Below are positions 2,744 to 52,520 of a stretch of 64,000 nucleotides of DNA, one piece after another. Location of the stretch: assembly GCA_964057225.1 (NCBI GenBank), contig OZ059897.1, positions 11,470,001 through 11,534,000 on the forward strand. Reading direction: 5' to 3'. This DNA comes from Auanema rhodensis. Taxonomy: Eukaryota; Animalia; Nematoda. The notes under the pieces are model-generated. The model was given only the letters and a program-made list of their open reading frames with translations, was not told the origin of the DNA and did no database searches. Numbering within the stretch: position 1 is the stretch's first letter; each line of letters starts with the position of its first letter. Both the position numbers and the translations under genes were made by a program.

Positions 2744-2950
2744 TGAAACGCATAAAGTTAATTTAATAAGAACTAATAACAAAAATTAATCCGACGGTTA
2801 CAATAAAAACAGATGTATTCAATAAGCTTATTTATTTTAAAGTTTATCGCAACTACTAGTTTTGACAGCTGTACCCAAATCCATGTTACATAACAAATTA
2901 CAATGCCAACAGCAATGTGTAGACTGATGTATTCATTATATCAAGGTACA

Positions 2951-5900
2951 ATGGCTGCTAATAGGTTGTGTCTTTTTGATTATTTGTTTGTAAACTTTTT
3001 CTTTTTTTAGTTATAAACGTTTATGTGAAGAGCTAGGATTTGATTATGAAGAAATCAATCAGCTCAGGTAATTTAACAATATTTTGAATCTTTATATATA
3101 TTTTGTTTTTTAGTAAACGTATAAAGTTTACCGAGGCTGGTGGGATCGAGCTCTGTGAGCCCACATCAACCACTTTTAACAGTGGGCCCTCATCATCAAG
3201 GGTTATTGAAGTAATAACCTTGGATGACAGTGATGAGTAAGCGATATTAAAATTATAACATTTAGTTTTTTCTTTTTAAGCGAATGGGATCCTGCTACCC
3301 CATCAACCAGTGGAGGGCAAGTCGGATATGGAGCGACATTCAACGATGTCTGTAAAATAGAGGTGCGATCTTTTATTTACATATTATTTCATAATATATC
3401 TTTTGAAACATGAAATTTTCTCTTGCTCCAATTGCATATTTTGAAAACATTTTGAAATTTATTTCTCTTTTTCAATTGCATTCATAAAATTCTCTCTTTC
3501 TCATCTTTACATTTCATCTCAATCTATATCTTTTATCAAACAAATTGCAAATATTTTGAAATTTATATATTCATTCTTTTGAACAGCATTCATTTTAAAA
3601 TCTTTACATTTCATCTCACTATCTATCTATCTTTCCTCATCTATCTTTCTTTCAACCGATTTTGAATTCTTACAAATTATAAATATTTCAAACATTTTGA
3701 ACTAGTAAAATAATAAAACACAATCTTGACCTTTCCATTTATTTTTAAACATTAACAAATGTTTATAAAAGTTTTTTCAAAGTTGAAAAAAAAAATTTAT
3801 ATTTAAAAATCAAATGCCATTTATTTTTAATAAAAGAATATAAAAATAATTTAAAGAAAAGTAAATTTATTAAAAGTTATAAACAAAAATTATTTATATT
3901 TAAATTAAAAGCGTATAACCATTATAAAAAATATGTATTATAGTGGTCACACCGACGCATAAAACGAACTGGTCGGTTCACCAACGTGGTCGTTTGATCG
4001 CTCACGTTCCCACATTTGGAAGCCATTAATGAGCCAATGCATGTTGTCATGCCGCGGCTATTTAATGAGTTTCTTGATCGGTGCCTTGCTGAAAGTGGTG
4101 TGCCAGATAAACAAAAAGCACTGTTTTGTTTATCAATAGAGCACCCATCCTTTGAAAAGGGATCCATATTTATGGATTTCCGTAGAAGGGAGCATTTGGA
4201 TGGCGTTGTCATCATGAATGCCATCAGCAAGGTGCAGCAATCAAAGCGAGAGGCTGTAATTAGCCAGGCAATGAATATTGAAATGTATGTGTTTGATGAA
4301 AGACCGGTGCAGCCAAGCCTGATGCCTGGTGAAGGTAGAGTTGGTTTCTATTTTGATGCCGAACTCAAAATACCTGGCACAATTGAAAACACTGACACTC
4401 ATTGCCTGGCTAGAGCAGCAGTTGTGGGAATGTGGAGAGCCGATGAAGAGGCAGCAGAAGATGTTGTTGAGAAGCGGAGGATTCAAAATCTTTGTCGCAA
4501 CTACATCTTGTTGCCAAATCAACCACATCATATCAATTTATTAAATAGGTGTGGTATTTCTGTACATTTACCAAATTATAATTTGAATCATTTAAATACT
4601 ATTGCAAGTTGTAATACAGACTATAAGTTTGTAGTATACGCTAGGCCACCTGGACAGCGTATGTACGCTATTCAGCGTATCTTTAATGAAACGGCTAGCA
4701 AAGTGGTAACACTAGGCTACCGAAATAATCATTATGACTATATTACAACTTGTAGTAGATCACAGCTTTTTGATGGTATTATATGCCAACACTGTGAATT
4801 ATCTTACAAAACAGTGTTGCATAGATGTAAAGCCAAGTGTAAGAAATGCCACACCTTAAAATGTAATTCGATGGAAAATGTGGTTGAAAGTAGCATAAGA
4901 TGTGATAGTTGTAGAGTTTTGTTTAAAACTCGTCAATGCTTTGACAAGCATATTAGAAAAACATGTCGAATGTTTAAGGTAATTTAAAAAATATATATAA
5001 AATTTAACAAGACTAAATTCAGACATGTGAAAACTGTGATCATTATCACAGAGTACGTGCTGATAGACCGTACAATTGCAATGAGAAATTTTGCAAAAAG
5101 TGTGGTCAGACAAAGCCTGAAGATCATTCTTGTTGTTGGGTACCACCTAACGACAAGAAGAAGGATCAGTTAAAAAAGAGGCAAGAGAAATACAAGGTTT
5201 GTATTTAACATCTTTACAAGTGTAATGCTTAATTGTTTAAGATTATATTTTATGACTTTGAAACGGTTGTGTTAAAAAACGGAACAAATGTTCATGAATA
5301 TGCAGATGAACAATGGCCCAATATGGTTGTGTATAACAAATTTTGTGAAAGTTGTATAGATGCCAACTCATGTGAAAAATGCACAACCAAGGAGGGCCAT
5401 TTTGGGTATCAACAAGGTGATAGTGAATGGTCTGTAACAGATCGTTTCCTTGATTGGTTACTTAACTCTGTTGAGAATGATAATGCAATTTTGATTGCGC
5501 ATAATGGTTCACGCTTTGACATACATTTCTTGGTGTCTAGGCTGATAAACCGTGGTATATATCCTGATCCAATTTTAAATGGGACCAAGATTATAAGCAT
5601 GGTTGTCAAGCCTTTAAGAGGTCAAAAATTTAATTATTTATATTTTAAAGATAGTTATTTATTAGTGCCTTCACCCTTATCAGCGTTACCCAAGGCATTT
5701 GGTGTACCTGATATGAGTAAAGGACAGTTTCCTTACCTCTTTAATCATCCAATAAATTATGGCAAAGTGTTGCCATCTTTACCACCAAAACAGTACTATT
5801 GTACTGCTAGAATGAAAGCAGAAGACCTAGCTTTATTCAATATTTGGTATGAATAGCGTAATCAAAGAGCGTTTGATTTTGATGAAGAGCTTTTGGAATA

Positions 5901-7957
5901 TTGTAGGACAGATGTCCGTATTTTAACCAACTGTATGAAAGTTTACATGAAGTTGGCAACCGCCACCACTGGCTGGAATCCTGTCATACAATGTATGACA
6001 TTTGCCAGTTTCTCTTTATTCCAGGCAAGTTTTTTAAAATACAAGCATTTTCAAAACTAGTATATTACAGTTGAAAATGAACCACATTAAAGAGAACCAA
6101 GTGGGTATTCTGCCCGAGACTGGTTATTATGCCGGTCAAAAGCAGAGTATATTAGCCATAAAGTATATAAAATGGCTAGAACAAGGATTGGGCCGCCCAT
6201 TAATGCATAAGCTTAATGGTGGCGAATTTGCAGTGAGAGTAGATGACCATCGCTATCTACTCGATGCTTATGACCCCGTTGCCAATCATGGCTATGAGGT
6301 GAGTAATTTGTAATAAATGTAAAAAATGCAAATTTTTGTAGATTAATGGTTGTATTTACCATGGTTGCCCCCAGTGCACCAACAAGAGCGCTATAGCACC
6401 AGGCAGAAATGGTGAAACAATGGAAGAGGTAATTGATAATTTTTAATCATTTTAATTTGAAAAATTTAGGTTTATGATAAAACCATGAAAAGGCTTCAAG
6501 CAATTCAAAGCCAAGGCATTAGTGTTACCACAGTGTGGGAGCACGAAATTAATGCTCAAATTTCGGCCAATGAAGAAATGGCGAAATTTATGCGTGAAAC
6601 AAATGTTGTTACACGCTTGGCACCTAGAGATGCCTTTACCGGTGGCCGCACCCAGACATATAAGCTTTTGGCACAAGCTTCGGATAGATACTCGCTCGAG
6701 TATGTGGACTTTTGTTCACTATATCCATATGTCACCGCTTTTGATGCCTATTACCCTGTAGGTAATCCCAAAGTGATTACTGAGGGTTTCAAAAGCTTTG
6801 AGACATGTTGCCCATACAAGGGGCTAGTAAAATGTGACGTGCTTGCACCCACAAATTTGCTGTACCCTGTATTAGGTACACGTATTGGCGGTAAACTAAT
6901 TTTTACAAACTGCCGCACTTGTGCAGTCAAAAGTAAAAATGTAGCATGTGACCACCAAAATGATGTAAATGCTAGAAAGCTGCATCTAACTGTGACACAA
7001 GTTGAGCGTGCCATACAACGTGGCTATAAAGTGCTTCATGTGCATGAGGTGTGGCACTGGGAAGAATGGCAACAAGGCGGCCTGTTTAAAGAATTTGAAG
7101 AAAAGGTATGTTTTGATAAAAGTATCACATTAAATAGAATTTTTCAGGTAATATATCTCCAAGAGCACGAGGAGAACACTGGTGTTGCTCTGGAGAGCAA
7201 TAAAATTGAAAAGAATGCTGCCATGCGTAGCATTGCCAAACTGCAGCTAAATAGGTTTGTAAACTTTTAAAAACAATACATTACAAATTTGCTTATAGTG
7301 TCTGGGGTAAAATGGGTCAAAGACCTGATAAAGCCCAAACCAAGATTATTGGTGTTGAGGACCCAGAAATTGGTAGGATCATTACTGATCCTGCAAGGGA
7401 ACTCACTGGGTTCAAAATTGTGGATAATGTTGCGTACTGCACAACAGTACCAGAGGATTCACATTTGGCGCCACCGCCTTTTACAAATGTAGCTATTGCG
7501 GCCTATACAACCGCTCATGCAAGGCTACTATTGTATAAGGCAAAGGAGAAAAATGGAAAGAATTTGGTGTATACAGGTAATTTTATACTTTGTATTCAAT
7601 TTAAACTTCAGCAAAAGTTTATAGTTATAAACTTGTAAATGCAGCTGGTGATGTAAAATATGTAACAAAGGCAAAGGGAGTGGTAAGTACGAGCTTTGAC
7701 TTTTCAAATAATTTTATAATTTTCAGACGTTGGACCACACGGCAGCATCAGTGGTAAACTTTGAAAGTATGGAGCGACTGGTTCGCGGACTCGTTATGGA
7801 TGGAGAGAAATTGGTTTTAAAAACCAATACAACCTTGTAAAAGAGGCAACTCGGTGCCATATCCACAATGGATATGACAAAAAGTACTAAAGTTGTAATG
7901 GATAAACTTTGTTATCTAGACGATTATAGTACTTTACCCTACGGTTATTGTGAATAA
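2951..7957 (+). pseudogene. Spliced protein-primed family B DNA polymerase of Maverick A (leader, putative terminal protein, OTU-like, Cys-rich, exonuclease, Vsr-like, polymerase)
   Basis: Introns 2965-3010, 3068-3113, 3237-3280, 3363-3943, 4979-5022, 5197-5241, 6025-6070, 6299-6341, 6429-6469, 7106-7147, 7255-7298, 7577-(deleted), 7683-7726. Motifs YDFET, AHNGSRFD, DFCSLYP, KLQLNSVWGK, KAKG, TLPYGY. Stops near 3995, 5854 and 7838; motif C lost by deletion. Confidence 0.9.
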
Positions 7958-8094
7958 GTTTTAATATATTTGAATTTATAAATTTTATTATTGCGTGTAT
8001 ATTTGTATATGGTTGTATTTATAGATTTTTATTTATAGTTGTATTAATAAATTTTATTCTTCTCATCAAATGTTTTAAAGAATTTATTACATAC

Positions 8095-8897
8095 ATTACA
8101 AACTGGTATCAATATATGGAGCACTTTGCGAGTTTATCTTCTATAGCCATAGCTAATCCAGCGTTTAGATCAAACTCTTGAATGAGCAAATGTACATCGC
8201 TGATATCTACTTTCAAATTTGGAAACTCCTCCTTTAATGTAGTATCCTTGTTTTCATTATTCCAGCCTAGAGTGTCAATTAAAAAGTTATCACGGTTTGG
8301 ATATGCAGTTAGCTCCATTTTTGAATAGTTTACAAACAGTCGCTCTTGATTAAATAGGTCGATACTGACGGGAGCAGCCATCTCACACAATATGCCATTT
8401 TTTACAAGCGTTTGACGCGTTCTAAATCCAGCACTGGATGCATTATCTATATATCTATCAGCATAATAGCCTGATATGGCAAGTTTGCTCTCTTTAACAT
8501 CGTTGCTATACATTTAAATATTCTCGATATATGTTTTATAGGCATGATTCACGGTAGAGTCATACACGCTAACATCGCCAATTTTCAAATGATACGAATG
8601 TATTAAACTGGCAGCAAATTGTTGACATGGTGCAAAAACAAGGTTGTCTGGTACTGGATCACCGTTTGTGGTTACAATTTTAAATTTTACATTCAACCAA
8701 CATCTTCTCAGATTGAGGAATGATTTGGAATTTTGAGCTATAACAAATTCCCATGGTCCTTGAGGAAGAAAAGTATTTTTCAAAGGGACTTGTACAGTAC
8801 GAGTAGACTCTACACCTAATGCCGACGCTGGTATATCACCATAGTTGATATTAGATAAAAGGGCTTGTGCTGATTTTGAATCTATCAATTTAGCCAT
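8095..8897 (-). pseudogene. Major capsid protein (double jelly-roll, PY-like), copy A, with stop and C-terminal deletion
   Basis: ORFs 8514-8897 and 8109-8513 match the 425-aa ORF of copy B; ~540 bp deleted near 8124. Confidence 0.85.
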
Positions 8898-9362
8898 TTA
8901 AATGTGAAACGACCGCTCACGAGTGATGCACAACCGCTTATGAGGTTTTGTGGTTTTGCGTCGTCGCCGTTTGCCCAAGCCGGTAAGATCTCGTATAGCT
9001 TGCCGGCCGGCTGTTTTAAGAGTTTCCTTGATATTATCGCCTTTCAGCACCCCATCGACAATTTCATTACCAGTTTTTAGCAACTGTCCACCAAGAGGTG
9101 AATTTACAACTGGACTATTGCTTACAGCACTGGATAAGGCGTTTCTTCCGGCATTGATGAGATTTTGGGCTATAGGTGATTGAATGATGCGTGGTAGAAA
9201 TGATGCCAAAGTTGCCAAAATACCACCCAAACCATGACCCCTCTGCATTCCACGTTAAAACATCATTCCGCTAAATGGGGCGCCACCCATTTGTTGATTT
9301 AAAAGTGTTGTCCATTGAATAGAGTTGACATCCAAAAGGAGGTGCGGCATATCGAACCGCAC
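8898..9362 (-). pseudogene. Basic core-like protein (PZ-like), copy A
   Basis: Homologous to 46586-47050; QRGHGLGG and LTGLGKRRRRK motifs; N-terminal part interrupted by a stop. Confidence 0.65.
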
Positions 9363-9401
9363 GCGCGCAATACAAAAGTTACACTAGATCATTCTACTAA
9401 A

Positions 9402-9857
9402 ATGTATTCGTCTGAAATAGTATCACTATTGCAATCTGTCCCCAGCACTCGGAAACTATTCCTCGGTGTATACAGCGCTGATACTCTACCCAAAACGCGT
9501 CGTAAAAACTTTGCACTTGTCGTAAATACTGACACACATGATAAGCCAGGCACACATTGGCAGGTCATCTTTGTCCGTAACAAGCAAGCCTATTTTTTCT
9601 GTAGCTTGGGATATAAAATGAACAAGTACATTCAAAATTATCTGGCCAAATATAAAAAGGTAAAAATTAATACTTGCAAACCACAACGTTTAATTGAATA
9701 CACTTGTGGTGGCTATGTGGTTTTTGTAATACTAATGTTGTCGGCTGGTAATTCATTTGAAAGCATTTGTTCATTTTTTAAACTATTGAAAAATGATGAT
9801 GTCTTTATTAAAGCGTTTATGCATAAAGTATTCGACTATAAATTGGCTACTATATAA
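9402..9857 (+). CDS. Adenain-like cysteine protease (Maverick PRO), copy A
   Basis: NTD...PGTHW...FFCSLG...PQ...TCGGY; start inferred from copy B (MYSSEI). Confidence 0.85.
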   Translation: MYSSEIVSLLQSVPSTRKLFLGVYSADTLPKTRRKNFALVVNTDTHDKPGTHWQVIFVRNKQAYFFCSLGYKMNKYIQNYLAKYKKVKINTCKPQRLIEYTCGGYVVFVILMLSAGNSFESICSFFKLLKNDDVFIKAFMHKVFDYKLATI

Positions 9858-9898
9858 GAAATTTGTCATTAATAACCTGCTACATTACGTGATCAGTT

Positions 9899-10069
9899 AT
9901 GAATATTCCTTGTCACTGTGAATTATGTGTCAAATACACGTTGGAGCAATCTAAACCAGCGCCTTTATACAGGAGTATGTTGAAATGTATTTCAGTGCCA
10001 TTTATTAAAGGTATAGCATTGGGATTGGGCTTTTGTACAACACTAATCATATTATTGCTCATTATATAA
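9899..10069 (+). CDS. 56-aa CxCxxC protein with C-terminal hydrophobic anchor
   Basis: MNIPCHCELC...KGIALGLGFCTTLIILLLII; same length and frame in copy B (47591-47761) and in the 1.4 kb fragment. Confidence 0.65.
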   Translation: MNIPCHCELCVKYTLEQSKPAPLYRSMLKCISVPFIKGIALGLGFCTTLIILLLII

Positions 10070-10110
10070 AAGTGGGTTGATTGCGTGTGGTCGTTTTTCA
10101 TTTTCCTCTA

Positions 10111-10577
10111 ATGGAACTTTTATGTAACAAATATTGTGGTACATGCAAGGAAATATTTTCTTCAACCAAGCATTTTAGTGATCACGTTTTGAGAAGGCAT
10201 GCAGGTGCATTCAACCCATATGTAACAATTATATCAGCAATGCTGACTTTATTCAAAAATATGGACATTTGGATGGTGTTCGTAGACGTTTGTGCCCTCA
10301 TTGTAGTGCAACTTTTGGAACAAGATTCAATTGTGAGCGTCATATTCGGCGTATTCATAATAATAATGGAACGAATGGTGAAGATGGTGATGGAAATGAT
10401 ACCAGCAAACCCTTTGAAAAAGCTGAGGAGTTTGTACATTCAACCCAATCAAAAAGATGCCGCAGCAATAGTGACGGAGAACATTCACAACACGAGCCGA
10501 GCGACAAACAAAACTGCCCTAAACTATCTTTTAAACCTTCGAAAATGAAAATGTGGTATTGTATAACTGTTGAATAA
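10111..10577 (+). CDS. Dual-frame locus: C2H2 zinc finger(s) and overlapping hydrophobic protein, copy A
   Basis: CGTC...HVLRRH and CPHC...HIRRIH in different frames; hydrophobic frame open to 10548. Confidence 0.6.
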
Positions 10578-10584
10578 AACGTTT

Positions 10585-11440
10585 ATTTCATATTTTTAAC
10601 ATGCAATGTAACAACTGTAGAACCATAATTAAATTGCATAGGACGACCAAATTCATCTAAAATTTCAATACGTATGGTATCGAGTGTTTGTCTAGTGATT
10701 GGTACATAACGAATAGGATTAAATGTTTTGGCAATCATTTTACCAAATTCAGTAGGAGGTGGTACAGGTAAACATGCAAGTAAATTAAATTACATTACCA
10801 AGAATGGAATATTCTACAATATTACAATATATATATACATTGTATTAATGTTATTTGAAAAATCAATGGGACGCCTGGCTATTATTGTATCGTTGATGTT
10901 TTTATTTTCAAAACCAAGAAAATATGCAAAATCATCACCAAGCGTTGCATTCATTAATAGTCGCTTGCTTGTTACAAACTCTATGCGCTGCAATGTTTTG
11001 TTAAACTGAAATGTGGCATCTGCGAGCATTTCCTCCACTAGCTTAGCCTCAGCCTGGCGATTATTATACCATTTTTTTACATCTTCATCTTTATCTATTA
11101 AACTTTTTATACGTGCTTCTTCCTCAGCTCCAAGAGGCTTTGTATTGTTGGCGATAAATGATTCTCTTCCAGCATTGATTCCGCGTATTATTTCATCACC
11201 ATTTGCATAGTTGCCTTTAGGCAAGTGCAGAATAAACTTTCTATTGGAAAAACGTAGTGTATAAGATGAATCTTTTTGAACATTTAATATAGAACAAGGA
11301 AAAATGATGTCTGTCAGCCCAATGCAATACCTATTATTGCGTATCCTTAGTGTTTCAGGTAATCTGGTAAGAAACACTGATGATGTATTACTTTTTTCAG
11401 AGTCAACTGATGATGGAAGAGTAATGTAAAAATCATCCAT
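10585..11440 (-). pseudogene. Minor capsid/penton (PX-like), copy A, frameshifted
   Basis: FYITLPS N-terminus; matches the intact 285-aa ORF at 48273-49130; small deletions near 10790-10825. Confidence 0.8.
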
Positions 11441-11519
11441 GACAAACCACCACTTGATACGTGTACACTACTGCAAATGAAATCATTTGCATTTTAGGTA
11501 CATTTACGAGTGGTTGATT

Positions 11520-12167
11520 ATGGTTTTCAGCTTCAAACTACCCAGTCAGACAACTGTAATAGGTGCTACCCAATGCGGTAAAACAACCCTCATAAAGCAC
11601 ATATGTGAAAATACTGAAAAGTTTTTCAACGTCCCCATTGATAGAATATTCTGGTTCAGTCAATGTGGGTCATCGTCAGGTGTACCAATAAATGATGAGC
11701 GTTTAATAATTATTCAAGGGCCACCTGATCCTGATTTAATAAAAGAACAAAAGGGAGTAAATACTATACTAGTGCTGGATGATTTGATAAACTTTTTTTC
11801 ATCGAATAAAGCAGCAAAGGAATTACTCAACAACATTTTTACAGTGTGGGCACATCACTGGAATTTGGCAGTGTTTAATCTTGTGCAAGCGGCATTTCAA
11901 CTGGACAGGACCAGTCGAATCAATAGTACATATATAATACTGATGAAAAGTCATTCAGATATATTACAAATACGTAATTGTCTGCAGCAATTATTTGGGC
12001 CACGTTTCAAAAATGCTCTAGAGGCGTATAATGATGCAATGTCTACTCCCTATAGTCATTTACTGATTGACAATCATCCTTTAACAAGTGAGAAGCAGCG
12101 TATACTATCTGATAGAACAGCGGAGAACCCTATTGTTTATGTTGCCAGAAATGTGTTTAGTGTTTAA
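11520..12167 (+). CDS. A32/FtsK-like genome-packaging ATPase, copy A
   Basis: Walker A GATQCGKT, Walker B LVLDD, RINSTY; ATG at 11520. Confidence 0.9.
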   Translation: MVFSFKLPSQTTVIGATQCGKTTLIKHICENTEKFFNVPIDRIFWFSQCGSSSGVPINDERLIIIQGPPDPDLIKEQKGVNTILVLDDLINFFSSNKAAKELLNNIFTVWAHHWNLAVFNLVQAAFQLDRTSRINSTYIILMKSHSDILQIRNCLQQLFGPRFKNALEAYNDAMSTPYSHLLIDNHPLTSEKQRILSDRTAENPIVYVARNVFSV

Positions 12168-12179
12168 AGTGCTTGTTCA

Positions 12180-12401
12180 ATGAGTGGTCGTATTTTGTCA
12201 AATTTCAACTTTTTGTCTTCTTGCGCCAAAACTCCTTGTTCTGTTTCCTCATTTTCTTTTGCACAAATTGAAATTATTGTTGAAATTGTATTTAATATTG
12301 TGAAAAATAATAATTTTCTTTTAACTAACAAGGAATATAAAACCCTCTTGCCCATATCTTCATTATTACGTCAAATGTGGTATTGCCTATTTTGGTTTTA
12401 A
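12180..12401 (+). pseudogene. PW-like small protein, truncated by deletion (the downstream 245-aa gene is also deleted)
   Basis: Matches 49870-50178 up to LLRQ, then jumps at deletion junctions near 12375 and 12405. Confidence 0.65.
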
Positions 12402-12404
12402 ATC

Positions 12405-13360
12405 ATGAAGCACGAAAACATGGCATTTCAAAGGTACAAGTTGATGATTTTTTGCAAGATTCTGAAACTTTTACACGACATAAACCAACCAGAATGCGTA
12501 TGCAGACTAAAAAGACTAGAGGATGTGGTCGATTTCTAACAGTGCAAGCAGATTTGGTTGATATGCAAAAATATAAAAAATTAAACGACGGCTATGCTTA
12601 CATGTTGACCATGATTGATGTTTATACACGCATATTATATGTTAGGCCTTTGAAAACTAAAGGTGGTATAGAGGTTGCTAGTGCATTTGAAAGTTTATTC
12701 AAGAATTTTATACCAATTCAGTTGATTACTGATAATGGCACAGAGTTTTATAATAGTCATTGTGAAAAACTATTCAAAAAGTTTGCCATACTGCACGGAT
12801 CTAGAAGTTCACCACAAAAGGCTGCAATGGTGGAGCGAGCAAATAGAACTTTAAAAACCCGCATGATGAAATATCTCTATTACAAGAATAATCATCGTTG
12901 GATTGATATCCTAGATGATTTGGTTGAAGGAATAAACAAATCTTATAATCGGTCAATTAAAATGCGGCCCATTGATGTTAAAGCAAATATATTCATTGAA
13001 GAATATGCACCAGCTGTTAAAAGCCGCTTTAAAATTGGTGATACTGTTCGCATAAGCAAAAATAGGCGTACTTTTGAAAAAAGCTACGAGTCTGGATATA
13101 CAATGGAGCTATTCACAATTGATGAGGTTGTAACCGGAAACCCAACCGTGTATAAACTTGTAGATTATAATGGTGAACGTATAAAGGAAACATTCTACGA
13201 ACCTGAACTTGTCTTGGCTACTAATAAAAGTAACAAGTACTATATAGAAAAAGTTTTAAAAGAGCGTACTCGGAGCGGTAAACGTCAAGTTTTTGTAAAA
13301 TGGAGTGGATATCCCGACAACTTTAATGAATGGATAGATGCAGAAAATTTAAATGTATAA
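12405..13360 (+). CDS. RVE integrase with C-terminal chromodomain, copy A (N-terminus deleted)
   Basis: QADLVD, TDNGTEF, VERANRTLK triad; KIGDTVRI; YYIEKVL...VKWSGYP...NEWI chromodomain. Confidence 0.9.
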
Positions 13361-13655
13361 TTTTTCAATGTTATAAACAATTGTAATTATAATAAATGAT
13401 TTATTTGATATATCGCATAATGTAACAATAAAAAACCAGCAAAATACAAACAACAATTCAACCTGCAAAAAAAAAAATGTAGACTATTCAAATTTTCAAA
13501 TTCTTACCAGTTGGTTGATCATTCGTCCACAATTGATGAGCCATTGATGGATATTCGCAAGAGCTGGAAAAAAAAATGTTACGGCTGAGAATATAAAAAT
13601 GCCACATAACAAAACAAAAATAAAACGCCAATTGTACTATTTGTGCTTGTTGTAG

Positions 13656-14241
13656 TCAAAATGAAGGATCAAAGCGGATAAACATGTTCAGGTTGAGTGC
13701 TTCAGGACTTAGTTTAAAGTAGAATACATTCTGCTTATAACCAAAAGTCTTTACAGTAGCCTCATCTGCATATATAACAATATAGCCCATATTGTTCAAC
13801 AATTGCTTGCACGTCATGGTGTTATAAGAGCGCATCTAAAAAAATTATAAAATTGAAAATAAATAAATATGCAAGCTTACATTAATAGAAAAGGTTTCGG
13901 GCTTATAGTGACGAAACTCCTTCAAAAGACCCAACGCATCATTCCTTCCTCTACACTTTATACAGAGGCTGAAACAGTGATACTCGTCTATAACCTGCAA
14001 TGATTCCCTACAAGTTTTGCAGAGACAAATTGGTCTCATTAATACACTCCTTGGTGGAGTGCTCTCTCTCAGAATCTCCATCTGCTTTATTGGTGAATCT
14101 AAATTAAAGATTTAAAAAAGACAAGTTAAGGTTCATACCAAAACTTGTGAAATTTGGAGCTGGTGTGGGTGGTCGTGGTACTTCAGGTTCAGGCGATTTG
14201 CGCACAACATTTGTCACATCAGCAAGTACAGCACGCTTCAT
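13656..14241 (-). CDS. Spliced 166-aa Maverick accessory protein (D-box, CDK sites, Cys cluster)
   Basis: Exons 14241-14139, 14098-13881, 13835-13656 join in frame with GT-AG introns; last exon conserved at protein level in copy B (52411-52232). Further upstream exons possible. Confidence 0.7.
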
Positions 14242-14875
14242 TTCCGCTAAAGATCCAACTTTCTAAAATATAAGGCAAACTTGCAGAGAGGAGCAGTCTA
14301 TGGCGATTGGCAAAGAGTGGCAGGAGATGGTGAAACGTCGGATCCTCGGATAGTTGGCAGAGCTGAAATGTAAATGTAGCAAAATTGCCAACCTTTTATA
14401 CAAAGATTTTTGTAAAGTACAACCCATTGTGTTACAATCAAGTTTGCTGATGAAATTCTCTTATTAATTAGATTTTACAGCATATTTATGCAGATATACT
14501 CATCTCATCGACAGTTGCCAGCAGTTGGCGCACTCTGAACCTGTAAACAATCTGCATATTAATTAGTTTTTACATCTCTTTTAACATTATTGTTTACCGT
14601 TTGTGCCATAAACAACAGCCATCTCTGTAAAACATTTAGGCTTTTTAAACTTTGCTTAATAGCTCATATATTATTCATAGTATACTTTTACACCCATATT
14701 GTAGCACAAAACATATGACTGCCAACGTTTTATATGTGAAAAATATTTCATTCTTGAATATTTAATAATGATTATATTACGAAACTAAAACTTTTGAAAT
14801 GTTAAAATGATTATACTATATTTAGAACCCCACAGTGCAGTTATTAGTGTTTATTAACCATCGATATGCGTGGCG

Positions 14876-15841
14876 TTGAGGTCAGCGCAACTGTTTGCTA
14901 ATCTTATTGTATTTACCTTCAATGTGTGCTCTATTTAGTTATTGTATTGTTATATTAGTAAAATAAAGTTTAAAACTAATCTTTTATTATAATTTGAAAC
15001 TTTTACTTGTTAGAATAAATATAATTAATAACAATTTGTAATTTCAAAAATTAATAATTTAATGTCATTCTTATCGAATAAACCTTCGATATGTGTTCCA
15101 TTGAATTTTGGTATTTCATATCGTTCTTATCGAATTAACCTTCGATATGTGTTCCATTGAATTTTGGTATCTCATATCGTTCTTATCGAATTAACTTTCG
15201 ATATGTGTTCTATTGAATTATCCATAACAAGTACGGTGAACAAAACGATATACATGCAAAAATTTTATTGTTCTTTAAAATAAAAACAATACAAAAACAA
15301 CACAATAAAAAATAAACAAAATAAGTAAACAAACATAATTAATAAATATAATAAATGAATAAATGAATAAAATTTTAAAACAAATTTATATATTTAAAAT
15401 TTAAATATAATTTATATATAAAATTTAAAGTTTAAATATAATTTATATATATAAAATTTAAATATAATTTAAATATTTAAAGTTTAAATATAATTTATAT
15501 ATATATAAAATTTAAATATAATTTAAATATTTAAAATTAAGATTTTTATTTTTACTTAATATATTTAAAAATAATTAAAAATATATACCTACATTTGAAA
15601 AAGCATATTTAAATTTGATTTAAAAAAAAAAATCATGCTTTAAATCATGATTTTCAAATTTAAAAAAGGAGAATCCATGAACCATGATCCCAAAATATGA
15701 TTTTAACAGCTGACGCTCAAAAATATGTTTTTGACAGCTGACGCGCCCCAAAAGTATGTTTTTAGCAGCTGACGCCCCCAAAAGTATGTTTTTGACAGCT
15801 GTTTGGGGGCGTGGTTAGTAAATTTTGCACGGCTCTCTACT
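14876..15841 (-). repeat. Right TIR of Maverick A
   Basis: Mirror of 1774-2743, ending GCACGGCTCTCTACT. Confidence 0.92.
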
Positions 15842-16418: not shown

Positions 16419-18770
16419 TCACTGAGAGTGCGTACCCTTAGCCACTGCGCTATGACTGGCTCGAACTACAATCTTGAACAACAAATGAATTGTGAAAAAA
16501 ATGATGCGAAAAGGAATTGCGCAGATAATAAGTATTTGTATGGGTAAATATGCTGAGAGAGCGGGTGTACTTGACAACTGGAAGACGCGGTCAATTACGG
16601 CGGTTACAAAGCCGAGTACTGTGATCAAAACACTCAATAGTATTACAATCGTTTTAAGGTAGTCCGAGTAAAACGAAACAAGTGAGCTGATTAAGTGAGT
16701 GGGTACAAAAAAGCTCGGTATGGTAAACTCGACGTTCAGGAGACTGAATGAACTGTTTGTAATCTGATAAGTGGACTGTTCAAAACCTATGTATTCGTTC
16801 ACGTAGTACAAGTTGCCTTTGAGATGTAATGTGGCGGAAGTACACGGATGAGTACACGTTATAGACGGTGTTGAAAAATTGCTCTGTATGCGAATAGAGT
16901 TGTTGTAACCCTGAAAATTGCATGTAAGCAGAAATTCTTCATCGTCGCACGAAATTCGAATGTGGGATGATGTACTGATGCAAGTAATGATTGTTGTTGC
17001 TCCAGTAACACAGTCAAAACATCCAACTAGGTCTTTGGATTTTAGTTCGCAAATAGTAGGACTATTGTCGTATTCATAAGTGACATCTGAGATATTTGTC
17101 CACATTTTAATGTCAACAGCGCTTATGGGATGAGCAAAAATGAGATTGTTTTTTTGGGATCATGGTCAGAGATGGAAGAGATAATGGTAGGGTGTAGTTA
17201 TTAGTATAGAGCTTGTTAGGATTGTTGTCCTGACAATAGCAATTTTCGACTGTTTCGGCTGGTCTGCATGAACATGTGTCTGTTGCAGTACATTCGGAGA
17301 ATGGGTCAGCGGTTTTAACTTTTCCGCACGAGTATGAAAATGTAGCAGAGTGAGGTAAAACTGCAATTCTCGAGTTGGAAGTAATGAATCGTCTATGGAG
17401 GATTTCATTATCAGAATATGTTATTCTCCCAAGAGTAATATGGTACCCATTAATGATTTTTGTAGAGTGTGGTAAAAAGGGGACGTGCGAGATCGTTTCA
17501 GTTTTGTTCTCAATAGCTGTATGGATGCTAATCTGGAGAAAAACCCTAGGTGTCCATCGTGAGCAGTAGAAAACTTCGTGGGTAATATTGCCATTGGGAA
17601 CATGAAAGTTGCGATAGAAGAGACAACCAGAAGTTGGCAACGCACAACCGCATGATAGAAATCCACAGCTTTCTGAACAATAGCTGGTACCTGGATATTG
17701 GTTGGCTAATGAGAGTTCTGAGATTGATGTATTGGGTCGAACGTTCGCACAAAACGATCCTACACAAGAGCCCATATGGGGACACCGTTTTGCGGATTCA
17801 GTTTTTACGATGGTGTGACGTGTAAAAAATAAGGATACTTTTGTGCACAGTATACGTGTATACATAAGTTTGATGCGCAGGTGTGAGTTCGTGAGGGGAT
17901 TGGCGTATGATCGGTTTGAATGTGAAGTTGTAAAACATACCTCATTATCGTAAGTATGGAGGGTGGTGGAGCTGCTGACTTGGTTGACTTGGTGGGTAGG
18001 TGATAAGTTCGAGACGGAGTTGCCTGGAACATGTGATATACTCGGAGGAACAATAGTACATGCATTAACTACAAGAGATTCAATCAAAAAAATGACGATT
18101 ATTGCAACAAAAAGATACCCGACTCGGTGAACTAATCGGTCACGTTGTCGTGATCGTTGTGAGGGTGTAGACTTCTGCCATCGAGGTAGCTTGTGAGAAC
18201 TGAGCGGGACGTACTCGAGTACCGATCGTTCTTCCTGAATAGAGATATGAAATCTTATATGAGAGGGGAGACATTGAGTGATCATACGCCAAACGGAAAA
18301 AAGGGTGTATTGTGCAATATGAACAAATTTTTTAGAACAAATTCGGATGACTATGATGCTTAAAAGAATGCTAAATAGAATGAGCCATATGATGAGTGCG
18401 GTCGCCGAGAGTGCTGCGTATGGGAAACAAGATGGGTTGTGGAGTAGTTCAAGACAGAACAGACATTGAATCATATCGCAAAACGGAGTTGCTGGACAAT
18501 CAAGTTGATGCAATGCAAATGTGTCATTTTTATCGATAATATGTCGTGAGATGAATGTGTGGTCATGCAATACAACATGAGCCGGAAATACTATGGTGAA
18601 GTTGGGAGTATTTGGGTTGTACTCTACACATGTTTCCCGGGCACAAACTCGGATGGGATGTCCAGTACCGCAGTTTGATATGCCTACTCCTCCTTTGATG
18701 CAAGAGAACTGGCAGATGTTGGTTGTGGACATTGGATTGACGAGAATACCCAGTATCATGGCTATGAAAA
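16419..18770 (-). pseudogene. Env: phlebovirus Gn/Gc-like class II fusion glycoprotein (frameshift near 17110)
   Basis: KRCPHMGSC, CSESCGFLSCGCALPTSGCLFYR fusion-loop-like region, internal signal/TM segments and C-terminal TMs, as in nematode BEL/Cer env. Confidence 0.85.
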
Positions 18771-21700
18771 AATGTGTGTAACTGGGGAGACGTCGTCGTT
18801 TTCGAGGTTGTGGTTCATTTTCACCTTCATCATCTGCAATGGTGATCACTTCGATGTCATCATCATCGTTGATAGTGATAACGTTTGGGTCTATCACGTT
18901 TTCAGTTGTATTGGGTCCGGTCGATGTGCTGGTTTCCACAACAAGTTTCCACAAGGATGATACTTCGTTATCGAGTAAAATGACCTCTGGAGTTTCTTTA
19001 AACGTGACAGTTTTGTCTGATTTGTGTGGGGACTGCGTATGCCTGTTTTCCGTATGATGCTCGTTGTCGGAAGGAATTTCAAGGGGAATCAGGCGATTGA
19101 TGGGTCTAAATAGTTTGTGTCCATCAGATGTACGGACTTCTGCAACTCTCACAGATTCCGTGTTCTGTATGCTTGTTATTAAACCCATTTTCCACTGGTT
19201 TCGTTTCGTATTGTCATCTGACATTAGCACTACTGTGCCTACTTTTGGTGTAGCTGTGGAGAAATGTCCTTGCTTGTGATCCAACATGTGTGTTGCTCGA
19301 AGGGCGACGACATATTCATTATGCCATCGTTGCCAAAATTTGTCAAGTGTTTTCTGAATGTTGTTTAACCGATCTATGCAGTCTCGCCTGGATCGTAAAT
19401 GAGTGGGCAGTTCACTGAGTTCTATGTCGAGGATTGTAACTGATGTGTTCGTTTGTAGAAAGTCGATCGGTCGAATGGGAGATAGATCGGTTGTGGTATT
19501 AAAGGTGTATGTTAATGGTCGAGTATTTACAATTTGTTCAACCTCTGTCACAATCGTTGAAAACATGTGGGCTTTACATGATGTTGTTAGACTAGTTCTA
19601 AGAGCCGATTTCATGATACCGACCATCCTCTCGTAAAAACCACCTTTCCAAGGTGCCAACGGAGTGATGAACTTCCAAGTTACCTTGTGATGCGTCAGAT
19701 ACGTGTCGACGTTTGGATCTTGTATGAGAGCAAAGATTTTCTGACAGAGGGTAAAATTAGACCCGTTATCGCTCCAGATGAGATCAGGAGAACCTCTTCG
19801 AGAGATGAATCTGCGAAGTGCTAACAAGGTTTCGGATGCGGATAGGTCTTGTACCACTTCAAGATGGATAGCGCGTGTGGCCATACAGGTGACAAGCATA
19901 ATCCATCTTTTCTCTGTGATGTGACGTGTGTCATCGTGTATGTTGAAGGGACCAGCAAGATCAATGCCGCAATTTTGAAAGGGGTTACTGCGTTGTACTC
20001 TCTCAGGAGGAAGTGAGGACATGTTGGGGTATTTGAATGGTCGTCCATGAAGTTTTTTACAAACCGCGCATTGTTTCAAAATGTTCTGTACCTTGCGGGG
20101 AAGTCTTGGTAACCAAAATCGTCGTATTTCGGAACGTAAATGATTACCACCGGCGTGGAAAAGTTTGGTGTGCATGTCTCTTATCATGATAGAAGCAAAT
20201 GGGTGATTATCCGGTATGAAACTAGGATGTATACAATCCTCCTCAGCTTCCATGTGTTCCAGTCTACCTTTGCATCGAATGACACCCAATTCATCGTGAT
20301 AGAGGCCAAGGTGTTTCCATCTCTTGTCTTCTATATCTACTGTACTCTGTACATCAATATAAGTAACTCTCTCTGCTTCCTTATATTCTTCAGCTGATAT
20401 TGTTGAAGGGTTTAGAGCGATCTCGTTGTCGTTGTTGATGCGATGTAGACGTCGTTGTTGTAAGAGTTGTATAAACCGAAGTACGTATGCGGTTGTTCGT
20501 ATGAGACATGTTAATCGCGAGCTTTGATATCGGAAAATTGATGGATCGTCGACAAATGTAGTGATGGAGGTACTAGCGATCAGTACTTGTGAGTCGTCCT
20601 CTACATAAGTATAGGGTCTGGTCATCTCCCATTCTTTGTCGTGCGTTTGTGAGAATTTCGGTCCTGTGAACCATGTGGATTTGTCAATGTTTTCCCTTGT
20701 AAGTCCACGCGTTGCGTGATCAGCTGGGTTGTGGTCTGTATCGACGTGGTAAATAAAGAAATTATAACTGTCTTTGACTTTATCAATGATAACGCGACAC
20801 GATCTAACTCGGTTATCGACGAATATTCCTGCATCAGGATTTGGTTTGCATACCCACGCAAGTGATATTTCCGAATCTGAGAAGATTCGTACGATCGATA
20901 TGTTCAATTTACTTTCTTGTAACAGAAACTCAATGATGTGACATCCGATAAAAAATGAAAGTAGTTCAAGTCTAGGAATAGTGAGCGGTTGCTTTTTATT
21001 TTTATCTGTTTTCTGCGATTTGCTTTTGTTCTGTGGTGCTAATCGCTGTTTCGCTATGAGGAAGTGTACTCCGGTAACATGAGATTTTTGGTCTAGTGTA
21101 CGTAGATATCCTACCGCACCGTATCCGATAGTACTAGCATCTACAAAAATGCAGAGTTCGTTCACGTGGTCATTGCGAATGTTTCGAGGTACGTGGTATC
21201 GGTATCCATGAACCGAACTGCATATCTGTTTCCATTCACGTTGAAGGTCGGGAGAGATTGGTTCATCCCATGCGTAACCGAGTGTCCACAGTTTTTGTAA
21301 GAAGTGTCGTGATAATAAGATTAAAGGACTCAACCATCCTACTGGATCAAATGTTTTGTGCGCTGTACTGAGTACCAGTCGCTTGGTTATACTGTCACCT
21401 GTATAATCCATTTGAAGTGCAAGACTGAATGTGTCTAGGTGTGAGTCCCAATAAATTCCCAAAACTTTTTGCAGTACCTTCTCTGCTTTGTCATGTTTTG
21501 GAATGCTTTTCATAGTGTTCTCGTCATTAGTACAAAATTCTCTCAAGTTCATCTTCATATCGTTGAACGCAGACTTACACTGTATGTATAACATTACTCC
21601 TTGTTAGGTCTCATCAAAGGTGAGAATGAGATTGTCTACATAAAGATTATCTATGATACAACTCGTAAGTTGTGTGTCTGAATGGGATTTCAGCCCAAAT

Positions 21701-24700
21701 TGGATTGCGCCAGCGAGGAGGAATGGAGAAGCATTGACTCCGAATGGTACTCTGTTAAATCGGAACACCCGTATATTATCCTGTTCAGGTGGTAACGAAA
21801 GATCGTGAAGCCAAAGGAATCGAGTGGCGTCTTTTTCGGTGTTATTAAGATGTACCGAAGATGTGAAAGGCCTTCTCAACGTCACTGATGATCATGTATT
21901 TTCCAAACCTGCATCGTAACAATAGACCTGTTAGATTTGGTAAGATTGTGAGACCCTGATGTATAACATTATTCAATGATAGTTCTCCTCGTCGATGAGA
22001 GGATGCATCAAGTACTATACGTACTTTGGTAGTGTTACTCGACAACTTAACTACCGCTTGATGCGGTATATAATAAGTTGGGGAGCTATCAGGGTGAATA
22101 GGTGCGTCTTCAATGATATTACTCTTCAATTGCTGTTAAAAAATTTCATTGTATTTTGCCCACATTTCGGGATTGCTCTTTGCGTGATTGAATTGTTGTC
22201 GCAGTCTAGCTAATGCGATACTGTAGTTATCGGCCAGTTGCGTGTTTGTTTTCCTTCCACGGAAAGGATACGTGTACGCCTTCCCATGTCTTTCTTACTT
22301 GTTCATTGAACTGGCTCAGTACCCCTTGTTGTTCTTCTTCGATTGATATGTTGTCTCGAATCCCAATAAATTCCATGGACCACATTTTTGTGAGATCAAC
22401 ATCGTCATGTATTTTTGTTGTGCATGTGATTACATTATCCGCGTATGTGGGGTTGTTGTTATCTATGTCATACCTTCCCGATAGTGTATATCCAAAGAAA
22501 GTGGGGTGAGCGACTAGATTGCAATCTGGCAATTGCATAATTGGTTCCTCATATATGGTACTCGCATGGACCTCAGCAATGCCCAAGATGATATCAATCT
22601 CTATAGGATCATTCAAGTTGCGAGATAAGTAGCCAATGTTCTGGCGTATAAAACGCTGATCGGCATTTGTCAGTCTTAACGGTTGTATGGCTGAAAGAAC
22701 CTTATCCATTATAACGCATGGGGCAGATATGCACGCTCCATCGTTATTGTAGAGATCGATCATAATAGCTTGCGTGTCTTTAAGAAGAAATTGTTCCCCC
22801 GCGGTTTCCATTCTCATGCGTACATCTTCATCGAATGGTAATCCCAAGCGGTTGATCAACTCTCTACGTACGATAGCTACTTGTGAACCCGAATCCAACA
22901 AGGCGTATACATGATGTGGATTATCGTGGCAATCAAATACTGTCACACTGACTACTCCAACGTGGTTTCGTCTGAATTCAAAGGCCTTGTCATTGACTGG
23001 TCCTGATGTATTTGAAATGTGGTCGTAAGGGTAAGTGAGTGCAGTAGCAGTCGAGATATGTTGGCGTGGGGAGTGAGCTCTGTATTGTTTTCGTTGTGGG
23101 TAAGGTGATCTGCTCCGTGAATATGAGGGTGATTTGCTTCTCGATGAGTGTCTCATAGACGCACTGCGGTCTTTTCTGTTGTTTTCGTTGTTCCGATGAG
23201 GTGATCTTCTTGTATTAGCCTCAAAACTTCTGTACGTTTGTGGTGGATGCCGATTCATCCTATCCTTCGAGTGAGTTCTAGTCCTACTATTACTCCGGGA
23301 TTGAGAATCGCGTTGACACAGAGACTCATGATGTGTTTTGTCACAGCGGTGACAATTCGGTGCGTGACATCCAATGGCTGAGTGTATCTTCGAAAAACAT
23401 TTGAAGCATAGCTGTTTGGATACAGCTATCTTCTTCCTTTCTTCTACCGATTGAATAGAATAACATTTGGTGGGAGAATGATTGCCAAGACAGAGATTGC
23501 ATTTCTGGTTATTGAACTGTTCTCGCCGACTAGTGTGTAGTTGTCCTGCTGCAATATGAAGAGTATTGCTATTTCTCTGACTCATTGCATTTTTATCGGC
23601 TTCTTCAAGCTGCAATGCTTTTGCGGCTTCCGTGATGTATTCAATGATTGACGTAATTGTAGTATGTTGTTTCGATTTGTATATGCTGTTATAGATGTGT
23701 CGAGGTACTTTTGAGAAGAGTATGACGCGAAGTCCTGTGTGATCTACATTAGGACTGTATCGTATCCTCATCGATATGATTTGATCAGCTTTGCGGATCG
23801 TATGTAGTATCGAAGCACTATTGTCTAGTGCTGCCGGTAAGGCTCTCAGTGAATCGTATAGTTTAGAGTCTAACATAGAGGGGTTCATGTACTCTTCCAT
23901 GAGGATGGCCTTTGCCTTACTGTAACTCTCACCAATGCGTGGCAAGCACAGTAAACATTCTTCAGCTGGACCAGAAAGTCTGTCGAGCAAAATGGAAAAC
24001 TTTTCAATCTCTGACAAGGGTTGAACATCAATAACTGCTGTGAACAACTCCCAAAATCCAAGAAAGTCTTCTGGATTAACGTTGAAATGTGGTACTTTAA
24101 CTGTTGGAAGACGAGGCGTGAGTATTGATGTTTGTACAGTAGGTGGGATCGAAGATTGTCGTGTTATGTTCTGTTGCATAGTTGACCAATGATCGGGAAC
24201 ATTATTTGTATGTTGTTCGACTGTAATTGGTCGAGAATCGTAGTGCGCGTGTCGCAATGGTGAGAGAGCTTTCCGCTTATTAGCTGCTCCAAGTGGGGTT
24301 CCAACATTGTCAGCATCAGCTCTAGCTCTTTTCAAGCTATGAGAACCAGTACTCAGATTGTTAAAAGAATGAACAAGATCATTTTCTGATATCGGCATTA
24401 GGTCATCGTTCAAAAGAGTGGAGTTACTGTTTGGTTCCAGCATTGAAATATCGTGCTGAGGAGATGCGATCATAACGTCACTATTGTTCGCTCGAGTAGT
24501 GTACACTCGTTTTGGAGTAGGTTGTCTTTGTGTGGAACCGATTTCATCAGAACTTGTGCTTTGTGTTCTGTGTCGTCGTGTTCTATCTGGTGTGATGTTC
24601 AAATGTTTTTGTATTCCAGAAAAGAAACTCATCTCTAAATTTTTTCTGGAGTATTTCATTCTGTTCATGTCATTTTGCAATGTTGTTGAGTCATGTACTG

Positions 24701-25307
24701 TAGAGTCAAATGAACTCAGATAGTCATCGAGTTCATCTCGGCGAAGTTGGATAAGTTGAGTATATTCCTCAACTTCGCCTGTGTTCACCATGAGATCTCT
24801 CTCATCGCAATAGTCCAAAATGCCCTTGATCAGTTTTGCAACTGTGGGCGGATGTTCTTCGCCAATGTCTTTGGTGACAAGTTGGTCGATTTCATGAGCT
24901 TTCATGGTCTTATGGGCTTGAGGGTGTTTGGTCAACATCCTTTTATAGCTACCTTGGTATAATTCCAACCAAGTTGCTGGGTAGTCCACATGGGTGCGTT
25001 CCTCGAGCATCACTCGATGTTCGTCTAACTGATCTCGTAGTGATCGGAAGACGTCCCCAACCGGTATGGCTTTATAATATATACGCATCAAGCTAGGCTT
25101 GTGCGTATGTATGAACTCTTGACATCTGTCGATGTCATCAACCGGGGGGAAGATGAATGCTTGATGGTACGGGAGGATGTCCTCCTTCACCGTGTTGAAC
25201 AACTTCAACGCGTGAGTTATATTTCTTTTTAAACAACTTAACTGTCTTGCTAAGGCAGTCAGGTTACGAGTTTCCTTTTCCGATGGAGAAGAGGGACTCA
25301 TAATCAT
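17113..25307 (-). pseudogene. BEL gag-pol(-env) polyprotein split by a stop and frameshifts
   Basis: ORFs 22227-25307, 21845-22129, 21604-21885, 17113-21594 are consecutive parts of one polyprotein (YYIPH, RIVLDAS, DVEKAF, RVPFG, YVDN, SDNGSNF, GGFYER). Confidence 0.9.
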
Positions 25308-45100: not shown

Positions 45101-45114
45101 GTTATTGTGAATAA
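39194..45114 (+). pseudogene. Spliced pPolB of Maverick B
   Basis: Same intron positions as A (e.g. 39612-40894, 41930-41975, 42150-42194, GC-AG 42978-43023); intron-9 donor GT>TT near 43383; motif C reads DADS, followed by a 10-nt deletion. Confidence 0.9.
39820..40700 (+). repeat. AT-rich ~168-bp tandem repeat in pPolB intron 4 of copy B
   Basis: Recurrent GATGCTCAAAAACTGAAACAT; units starting ~40143 and ~40311 are essentially identical. Confidence 0.8.
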
Positions 45115-45252
45115 TTTTTAATATATTTGAATTTATAAATTTTATTATTGCGTGTATATTTGTATATGGTTGTATTTATAGATTTTCATGTATAGTTGTA
45201 TTAATAAATTTTATTCTTCTCATCAAATGTTTTAAAGAGTTTATTACATACA

Positions 45253-47050: not shown

Positions 47051-47088
47051 GCGCGCAATACAAAAGTTACACTAGATCATTTTACTAA

Positions 47089-47544: not shown

Positions 47545-47590
47545 TCAACTTCGCCATTAAAACGTCACCTGCTACATTAGGTGGTCAGTT

Positions 47591-47761: not shown

Positions 47762-47802
47762 AAGTGAGTTGACTGTGTGTGGTTGTTTTTTATTTTCCTC
47801 TA

Positions 47803-48267: not shown

Positions 48268-48272
48268 AACAT

Positions 48273-49130: not shown

Positions 49131-49209
49131 CAGAGACCACCACCTGATGCGTGTACACTAGTATAAATGAAATCATTTGCATTATAGGTACATTTACGAG
49201 TGGTTGATT

Positions 49210-49857: not shown

Positions 49858-49869
49858 TGTGCATGTTCA

Positions 49870-52231: not shown

Positions 52232-52520
52232 TCAAAACGATGGATCAAAACGGATAAGCATATTCAAGTTGAGCGCCTGTTGACTTAATTTAAAGTAGAA
52301 CACATTCTGCTTATAACCAAAAGACTTGACAGTTGACTCATCAGTATAGATGGCAATGTAACTCATATTATTCAACAATTGTTTTGATGACATGCTAGAG
52401 TAGGAACGCATCTGTAAAAGAAAAAATAATAATTAGAATTAATAATTTTATAATCTTACATTGATTGTTGAATTGATCGCAGGATTGTTGCGAAAAACAG
52501 ACTTGTACACATCCGATTAC
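52232..52520 (-). pseudogene. Copy-B homolog of the spliced accessory gene (last exon intact, 5' part lost or diverged)
   Basis: MRSYSSMSSKQLLNNMSYIAIYTDESTVKSFGYKQNVFYFKLSQQALNLNMLIRFDPSF; same 180-nt exon and splice sites. Confidence 0.7.

What the first reader, a model, noticed from the sequence alone, without database searches (positions are those of the whole stretch)
13656..14241. Hidden spliced Maverick gene with a cyclin-type destruction box and CDK sites
The spliced product begins MK-RAVLADVTN, a full RxxLxxxxN D-box (APC/C degron). It continues with an S/T-P-rich segment including full CDK consensus sites SPIK and TPPR, a CxCxxC...CxxxCxxC cluster, and a 59-aa C-terminal domain conserved in copy B with many synonymous changes. 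It is transcribed inward from the right TIR, mirroring pPolB from the left. Inference: a cell-cycle-timed regulator or APC/C decoy linking element replication to host S/G2. It is not among the standard Polinton core genes I know.
Basis: partly seen in the sequence, partly recalled or inferred. Interest (0 to 1): 0.85.

Follow-up and report, generated by a model that had tools for sequence, protein, structure and literature searches.

The report
Maverick gene with cell-cycle destruction box
A virus-like Maverick element, likely in a nematode, carries a transcribed, spliced gene of no known family whose predicted protein starts with a textbook cell-cycle destruction signal, so the host's mitotic disposal machinery would likely time it; an extra intron seen in RNA would cut the predicted protein short.

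Summary
The gene is real. Both predicted introns are spliced in public RNA contigs, and the last exon is under purifying selection against copy B (dN/dS 0.067). It is spliced out in 2 of 4 runs, which shifts the frame and leaves a 66-aa product that keeps the D-box. The 166-aa form needs that intron retained; one contig runs 29 nt into it, and no contig shows the whole path. The intron looks coding (GC 0.42, open frame), so two isoforms are likely. The D-box fits the structure-based consensus at positions 1, 4, 6, 7 and 9 (17 of 20,000 shuffles), but it is seen in one copy only: window copy B lacks the 5' exons. No homologue or fold match was found. The gene sits in the known intron-bearing cargo slot between TIR and integrase of nematode Mavericks. 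Best reading: an accessory protein that is likely an APC/C substrate, with a splicing switch. A decoy role is less likely (single degron). The link to element replication is untested.

The parts
14139..14241 (-). Coding exon 1 (34 codons + 1 nt): start codon, D-box, Pro-rich stretch with SP and TP sites
   Evidence: covered by contigs of X1, X2, X3
14209..14235 (-). D-box RAVLADVTN (residues 3-11)
   Evidence: consensus positions from PMC3690534
14099..14138 (-). Intron 1, 40 nt, GT-AG
   Evidence: joined in X1 and X3
14012..14098 (-). Exon 2a: SPIK, TPPR and Cys59, Cys61
13969..14011 (-). Alternative 43-nt intron (exon-like, codons 64-78 of the long form; holds His75 and Cys76 and splits codon Cys64); removal shifts the frame
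   Evidence: removed in X1 and X2; X3 contig runs 29 nt into it; GC 0.42
13881..13968 (-). Exon 2b: Cys80, Cys83 in the long form; stop of the 66-aa short form at 13960-13958
13836..13880 (-). Intron 2, 45 nt, GT-AG; donor and acceptor also present in copy B
   Evidence: joined in X1, X2, X4
13656..13835 (-). Exon 3 coding part: 59 aa, begins with its own ATG, small alpha/beta domain under purifying selection
13463..13507 (-). Intron in the 3' untranslated part, 45 nt
   Evidence: joined in X1 (cut +2)
14242..14441 (-). Transcribed 5' region (spliced contig reaches 14354; another contig 14441); TATA-like word at 14400
12341..13360 (+). Neighbouring Maverick integrase (rve + chromo), convergent with the gene
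14840..15841 (.). Right TIR of element A (88.6% to left TIR 1774-2780)
52232..52411 (-). Exon 3 homologue in copy B; this type is transcribed, but the window copy has no 5' exons

Best explanation
This is a transcribed, alternatively spliced accessory gene in the TIR-integrase slot of a Maverick, likely in a nematode, and its predicted protein likely carries a working APC/C destruction box, so it would build up from S phase to mitosis and be destroyed at mitotic exit. Shown: transcription, four GT-AG introns, purifying selection on the last exon, the motif. Inferred: keeping the 43-nt intron gives the 166-aa working form (disordered D-box/CDK tail, a metal-binding cysteine cluster, a conserved 59-aa domain); removing it gives a 66-aa D-box-only product or a decay-prone transcript, so splicing would act as an on/off switch. 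Inferred and untested: the timing serves the element in dividing cells, for example the germ line.
For: Splice joins in 4 runs of one study; B-type exon 3 transcribed and joined at its acceptor in two studies (position checked). dN/dS 0.067 in the predicted frame versus 2.3 and 1.9 in the other two. Extended D-box pattern in 17 of 20,000 residue shuffles, 0 of 20,000 within the first 15 residues; 2 matches in 127,996 six-frame positions of the window. It matches R1, L4, D/E6, V/I/L7, N9 of PMC3690534. Two full CDK sites in the first 55 residues: 383 of 20,000 shuffles. Lys2 and Lys15 flank the motif. For the long form: the 43-nt intron has GC 0.42 versus 0.16-0.23 for the other three; the 131 nt of intron plus exon 2b are stop-free in the long frame (858 of 20,000 shuffles; the other frames have 3 and 5 stops); the one listed RNA variant in exon 2b is synonymous in that frame; the X3 contig is spliced at intron 1 yet enters the 43-nt intron.
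Against: The D-box is seen in one copy only; window copy B has none. The frame-shifting form is the better supported transcript (2 runs, fully bridged); retention rests on one contig with 29 nt in the intron, under the tool's 31-nt bridging rule, and may be unfinished splicing. P3 is Val (Ala/Pro/Ser preferred), P8 is Thr (Ser preferred), and the P-1 and P+1 preferences are not met. The motif was noticed first and tested after, so the shuffle rates overstate its surprise. Both elements in the window are decayed. No protein-level or cell-cycle data exist.
Confidence: 0.45

Rival explanations
1. Passenger cargo: a captured host gene or gene fragment that keeps its D-box from its host role and does nothing for the element's own cycle.
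For: The TIR-integrase region of nematode Mavericks is described as a cargo region with intron-bearing genes taken from the host. The introns match the host's 40-50 nt introns. Exon 3 has dS 1.55 versus 0.31-0.51 for three core ORFs, so this arm has its own history.
Against: No host-type homologue was found. Core pPolB also appears to carry such introns, so introns do not mark host origin here. Both element types keep exon 3 under selection and transcribe it.
Confidence: 0.22
2. The working protein is the 59-aa exon-3 frame (or a two-ORF transcript); the D-box exon is an upstream ORF or a chance motif.
For: The fully spliced transcript cannot join exon 1 to exon 3 in frame. Exon 3 starts with ATG right at the acceptor in both copies, and only exon 3 could be shown to be conserved.
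Against: Seven ATGs precede that ATG in the spliced transcript. The quality and position of the D-box, and the coding-like 43-nt intron and exon 2b, are unexplained.
Confidence: 0.15
3. APC/C decoy: the protein, or its 66-aa short form, occupies the D-box site and holds cells in an S/G2-like state.
For: Near-optimal D-box. The short form keeps only the D-box/CDK tail. Adenovirus and HCMV proteins act on APC/C (passages; listing).
Against: No KEN or ABBA match; inhibitors often rely on several motifs (PMC6721574 passage). Lysines next to the motif favour ubiquitination. Contig depths are low (about 3-7, a poor measure).
Confidence: 0.13

Closest known systems
Cargo genes of nematode Mavericks (WASP proteases, KRMA kinases; Widen et al., bioRxiv 2022.07.12.499685, sections 11-12 and passages read)
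   Same: Position between a TIR and the integrase, introns, lower conservation than core genes.
   Different: Slot is 1.5 kb, not 2-5 kb, and not GC-richer overall (0.335 vs 0.362); the product is small, with no protease or kinase match; no fusogen-sized ORF in copy B.
Adintovirus 'Oncoid' genes (Starrett et al., PMC8502044, section 8 and passages read)
   Same: Small non-core Polinton ORF with a host cell-cycle linear motif next to paired CxxC.
   Different: No LxCxE; the motif is an APC/C D-box; the gene is at the integrase end, not upstream of PolB; it is spliced.
D-box substrates of APC/C such as cyclin B and securin (PMC3690534, PMC6721574, passages read)
   Same: N-terminal RxxLxDVxN motif in a Pro/Ser/Thr-rich tail with CDK sites.
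   Different: No cyclin fold or other known domain; carried by a mobile element; degradation untested.
Adenovirus E1A (recalled, not from a call)
   Same: Terminal gene read inward from the inverted repeat; alternative splicing adds or removes a four-cysteine zinc region.
   Different: No sequence or fold match was found; E1A targets Rb by LxCxE and its splice keeps the frame, while this one shifts it. An analogy only.

Membership tests
Maverick/Polinton (host element) | Long terminal inverted repeats | tested here: met
   1774-2780 and 14840-15841, 88.6%
Maverick/Polinton (host element) | pPolB, integrase, packaging ATPase, adenovirus-like protease | tested here: met
   DNA_pol_B_2, rve and Chromo above cut-off; Peptidase_C5 (E 0.001) and ATPase (E 4e-4) below cut-off
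Maverick/Polinton (host element) | Major capsid protein | tested here: inconclusive
   425-aa ORF 45308-46585 in the expected place; no Pfam or PDB hit
Maverick/Polinton (host element) | Target-site duplication (5-6 bp, recalled) | tested here: not met
   Flanks of element A differ; A may be a mosaic or its flank rearranged
Nematode Maverick cargo slot | Between TIR and integrase, intron-bearing, less conserved | tested here: met
   (78.5% nt vs 87-92% for three core ORFs)
Nematode Maverick cargo slot | 2-5 kb and GC-richer than the core | tested here: not met
   1479 bp, GC 0.335 vs 0.362; exons alone 0.36-0.48
Nematode Maverick cargo slot | Host-derived: a host homologue exists | tested here: inconclusive
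   No homologue; host genome not held
Adintovirus Oncoid | LxCxE motif | tested here: not met
Adintovirus Oncoid | Paired CxxC | tested here: met
   residues 61-64 and 80-83, long form only
APC/C D-box substrate | RxxL core with D/E6, V/I/L7, N9 | tested here: met
   P3 and P8 are not the preferred residues
APC/C D-box substrate | Unstructured context with lysines | tested here: met
   18% Pro in residues 1-55; pLDDT 36-44 for residues 36-55 in a single-sequence model (exon 1 not modelled); Lys2, Lys15
APC/C D-box substrate | Motif conserved in homologues | tested here: inconclusive
   Only one copy of exon 1 available
APC/C D-box substrate | D-box-dependent degradation | not testable with these tools
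   needs a bench assay
APC/C pseudosubstrate inhibitor (Acm1 type) | Several degrons (D + KEN + ABBA) | tested here: not met
   no KEN or ABBA pattern; two further bare RxxL at 51 and 65

The most novel reading that the evidence does not exclude
A Maverick-encoded early regulator aimed at APC/C: an E1A-like terminal gene whose alternative splicing switches between a zinc-binding 166-aa effector destroyed each mitosis and a 66-aa D-box micro-protein that competes for APC/C, letting an integrated DNA virus-like element read and bend the host cell cycle.
Probability: 0.2. Interest if true: 0.8.

Novelty: new variant of a known kind. Interest (0 to 1): 0.55.

Why it matters
What wakes integrated Mavericks, and in which cells they copy themselves, is open; the main nematode study found no transcription of Maverick genes. 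Here a non-core gene is transcribed and spliced in two element types and has a testable host-control motif. If the D-box works it would be a direct tie between a Polinton and APC/C, which my searches did not find in print, and would extend the Oncoid idea from Rb to APC/C.

Tried and rejected
Homologue searches with single exons found nothing: exon 3 in 5.8 billion proteins, longer and near lengths; exon 2, longer; exon 3 in 1.84 billion representatives gave 1 hit, E 4e-4, in a bacterial MBG-repeat protein, rejected as chance. Pfam: 0 families for 4 of 4 pieces at E 10; PHROGs: 2 weak hits to exon 1. PDB by sequence: none for exons 1 and 3, 2 at E>1 for exon 2. Viral contigs: none. Metagenome contigs: none for exon 3; the integrase gave one distant Polinton fragment, L001 (42%), which matched only integrase and protease. 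Folds: exon 3 model pLDDT 71, best Z 2.2, no Foldseek hit at E<=0.001; exon 2 model pLDDT 57, best Z 3.1; these absences show nothing about novelty of fold. Complex of exon 3 with exon 2 residues 20-72 plus zinc: no verdict, score 0.00. The whole 166-aa form was not folded or searched in databases. The protein atlas gave no answer. No host genome is held. Earlier findings: none in 4 look-ups. A splice route that would give window copy B an upstream start: none of 18 paths. Lack of RNA cover on most core genes of B is not used as evidence.

Full report
Setting. The finding lies in a 14,068-bp Maverick (element A, 1774-15841) with 1-kb TIRs that are 88.6% alike. Pfam finds pPolB pieces, integrase with chromodomain, and weak protease and ATPase hits. 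A second, longer copy (B, core about 40.9-52.5 kb) and fragments also lie in the window. Both copies are decayed: A lacks stretches of pPolB and the capsid region that B has, and B's integrase is split by a stop. The host is likely a nematode (inference): a Pao/BEL element with a phlebovirus-type envelope lies next to A (such elements are described from a hookworm, listing), and host genes have short introns. No genome is held.

Observation. The motifs are where stated. Exon 3 is 47/59 identical in copy B, with 24.5 synonymous and 13.5 non-synonymous differences, dN/dS 0.067; the other two frames give 2.3 and 1.9. So exon 3 codes for protein in this frame.

RNA. Five runs held part of the region; four, from one study and only guessed to be RNA, were laid on A (assembled contigs, 95-99% or more alike, so partly another allele or copy). 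Intron 1 is joined in X1 and X3, intron 2 in X1, X2 and X4, and a 45-nt intron after the stop in X1. All skips read CT..AC on the plus strand, so these are minus-strand spliced transcripts. It covers codons 64-78, the middle of the cysteine cluster. Removing it shifts the frame to a stop at 13960, giving 66 aa, and exon 3 can then be read only from its own ATG. The contigs have no gap in exon 2b, so allelic letters cannot restore the frame. X3 has a contig spliced at intron 1 that runs 29 nt into the 43-nt intron, just under the tool's 31-nt rule for bridging; X4 does not reach it. No contig shows the whole 166-aa path.

Is the long form real? Probably. The 43-nt intron has exon-like GC (0.42; the other three 0.16-0.23) and a poorer T tract. 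The 131 nt of intron plus exon 2b are stop-free in the long frame, with 3 and 5 stops in the others; 858 of 20,000 shuffles are stop-free. The single listed RNA variant in exon 2b is synonymous in that frame, as are those in exon 3 of A and one of two checked in B. This is modest support; unfinished splicing is not excluded.

Copy B. Upstream of the conserved donor, window copy B has 19 open codons, no start by any of 18 splice paths, and no RxxLxxxxN in 52412-54300. Yet the B type is transcribed: an 800-nt X1 contig matches 52109-52411 over 306 nt, X3 has a matching contig, and an X5 contig from a second study matches 52359-52411. In X1 and X5 the match stops at 52411, the first base after the acceptor, and 494 and 139 further letters were not placed on copy B. 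So expressed B-type alleles have a 5' part that the window copy lacks. Whether it holds a D-box is open. Exon 3 has dS 1.55 versus 0.31-0.51 for three core ORFs, so this arm has been exchanged between element lineages or is older (inference).

The motif. He et al. (PMC3690534, passages) give R1, L4, D/E6, V/I/L7, S8, N9, small residues at 2, 3 and 5. RAVLADVTN meets 1, 4, 6, 7 and 9; it has Val at 3 and Thr at 8 and lacks the P-1 and P+1 preferences. The pattern R..L.[DE][ILV].N, written from recall before reading the paper, occurs in 17 of 20,000 shuffles of the protein and in 0 within the first 15 residues; plain RxxLxxxxN occurs in 987. The window has 2 extended and 17 plain matches in 127,996 six-frame positions. 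Two full CDK sites in the first 55 residues occur in 383 of 20,000 shuffles. There is no KEN, ABBA, LxCxE or PIP match. These are after-the-fact tests, but the motif, its terminal position, the Pro-rich context and Lys2/Lys15 fit a substrate degron. I put a working D-box at about 0.6.

Relatives and fold. Single-exon searches of protein, family, structure and contig collections found no relative. Exon 3 folds as a small alpha/beta unit (pLDDT 71) without a match; exon 2 is disordered then helical, with His75, Cys76, Cys80 and Cys83 on one predicted helix (pLDDT 57), also without a match. Short queries and unannotated spliced genes make these blanks weak.

Mechanism. Most likely (0.45): an accessory protein whose long form carries a metal-binding cluster and a conserved C-terminal domain behind an APC/C degron, so it would be present from S phase to mitosis and removed at mitotic exit, with CDK sites tuning this; removal of the 43-nt intron would turn the long form off. 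What the C-terminal part does is unknown, and benefit to the element is inferred from its retention under selection in two element types. Rivals: passenger host cargo (0.22), exon 3 alone as the protein (0.15), APC/C decoy (0.13).

Comparison. Widen et al. (bioRxiv 2022.07.12.499685, sections 11-12 and passages) describe an intron-bearing cargo region between TIR and integrase; this gene fills that slot but is neither a WASP protease nor a KRMA kinase by size or family search. Jeong et al. (PMC10748475, abstract and section 5) list core genes and uncharacterized ORFs without such a gene in the text read. Starrett et al. (PMC8502044, section 8 and passages) describe Oncoid genes with LxCxE and paired CxxC; this gene has the CxxC pair but no LxCxE, so it works like the idea but is not a member. 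Viral action on APC/C is known (adenovirus E4orf4, passages; HCMV pUL21a, listing only). The E1A parallel is recalled, not tested. Searches for Polinton with anaphase-promoting complex (1 paper, unrelated by title), Maverick with destruction box (0) and Maverick/Polinton with cell-cycle terms (11, none on this by title and abstract start) found no report. Supplements of these papers were not read and may annotate similar ORFs.

Verdict. A real, expressed, alternatively spliced orphan gene in a known slot, with a strong but single-copy APC/C motif. New variant of a known kind; interest 0.55.

Noticed in passing
window 2952-3363 (+), about 31690-31290 (-), 39195-39612 (+): A run of short exons beside the left TIR, conserved in three copies, includes a SUMO-interacting-like motif (hydrophobic run then acidic residues; label recalled). 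Probably 5' exons of pPolB or a second hidden gene. Not tested by RNA.
   Followed up: partly
window 4037-7638 and 40988-45114: pPolB is interrupted at the same places in A and B by AT-rich, GT-AG bounded gaps of about 40-50 nt (for example near 4979/41930 and 6301/43254), likely host-type introns in a core Maverick gene. No RNA join was seen.
   Followed up: partly
window 13658-13641 and 52234-52217 (-): The exon-3 stop and the next 15 or so bases are the same in A and B (19 of 20 in that block); the stop is followed by CTA, a read-through-like context (recalled), or this is a 3' UTR element.
   Followed up: no
window 17113-25307 (-): Pao/BEL retroelement with long open frames and a phlebovirus G2-type envelope domain (E 2e-62).
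   Followed up: no
window 47803-48267 (+): C2H2 zinc-finger ORF inside the Maverick core, covered by contigs in X1, X2 and X3.
   Followed up: no
window 40800-52000: No ORF of fusogen size in copy B, unlike Caenorhabditis Mavericks; a spliced one is not excluded.
   Followed up: partly
window 13360-13430: The gene's 3' end overlaps the integrase 3' region; AATAAA words occur on both strands, so the two transcripts may overlap in antisense.
   Followed up: no
window 32411-34986: A perfect 1017-nt inverted repeat around 542 nt joins rearranged Maverick fragments.
   Followed up: no
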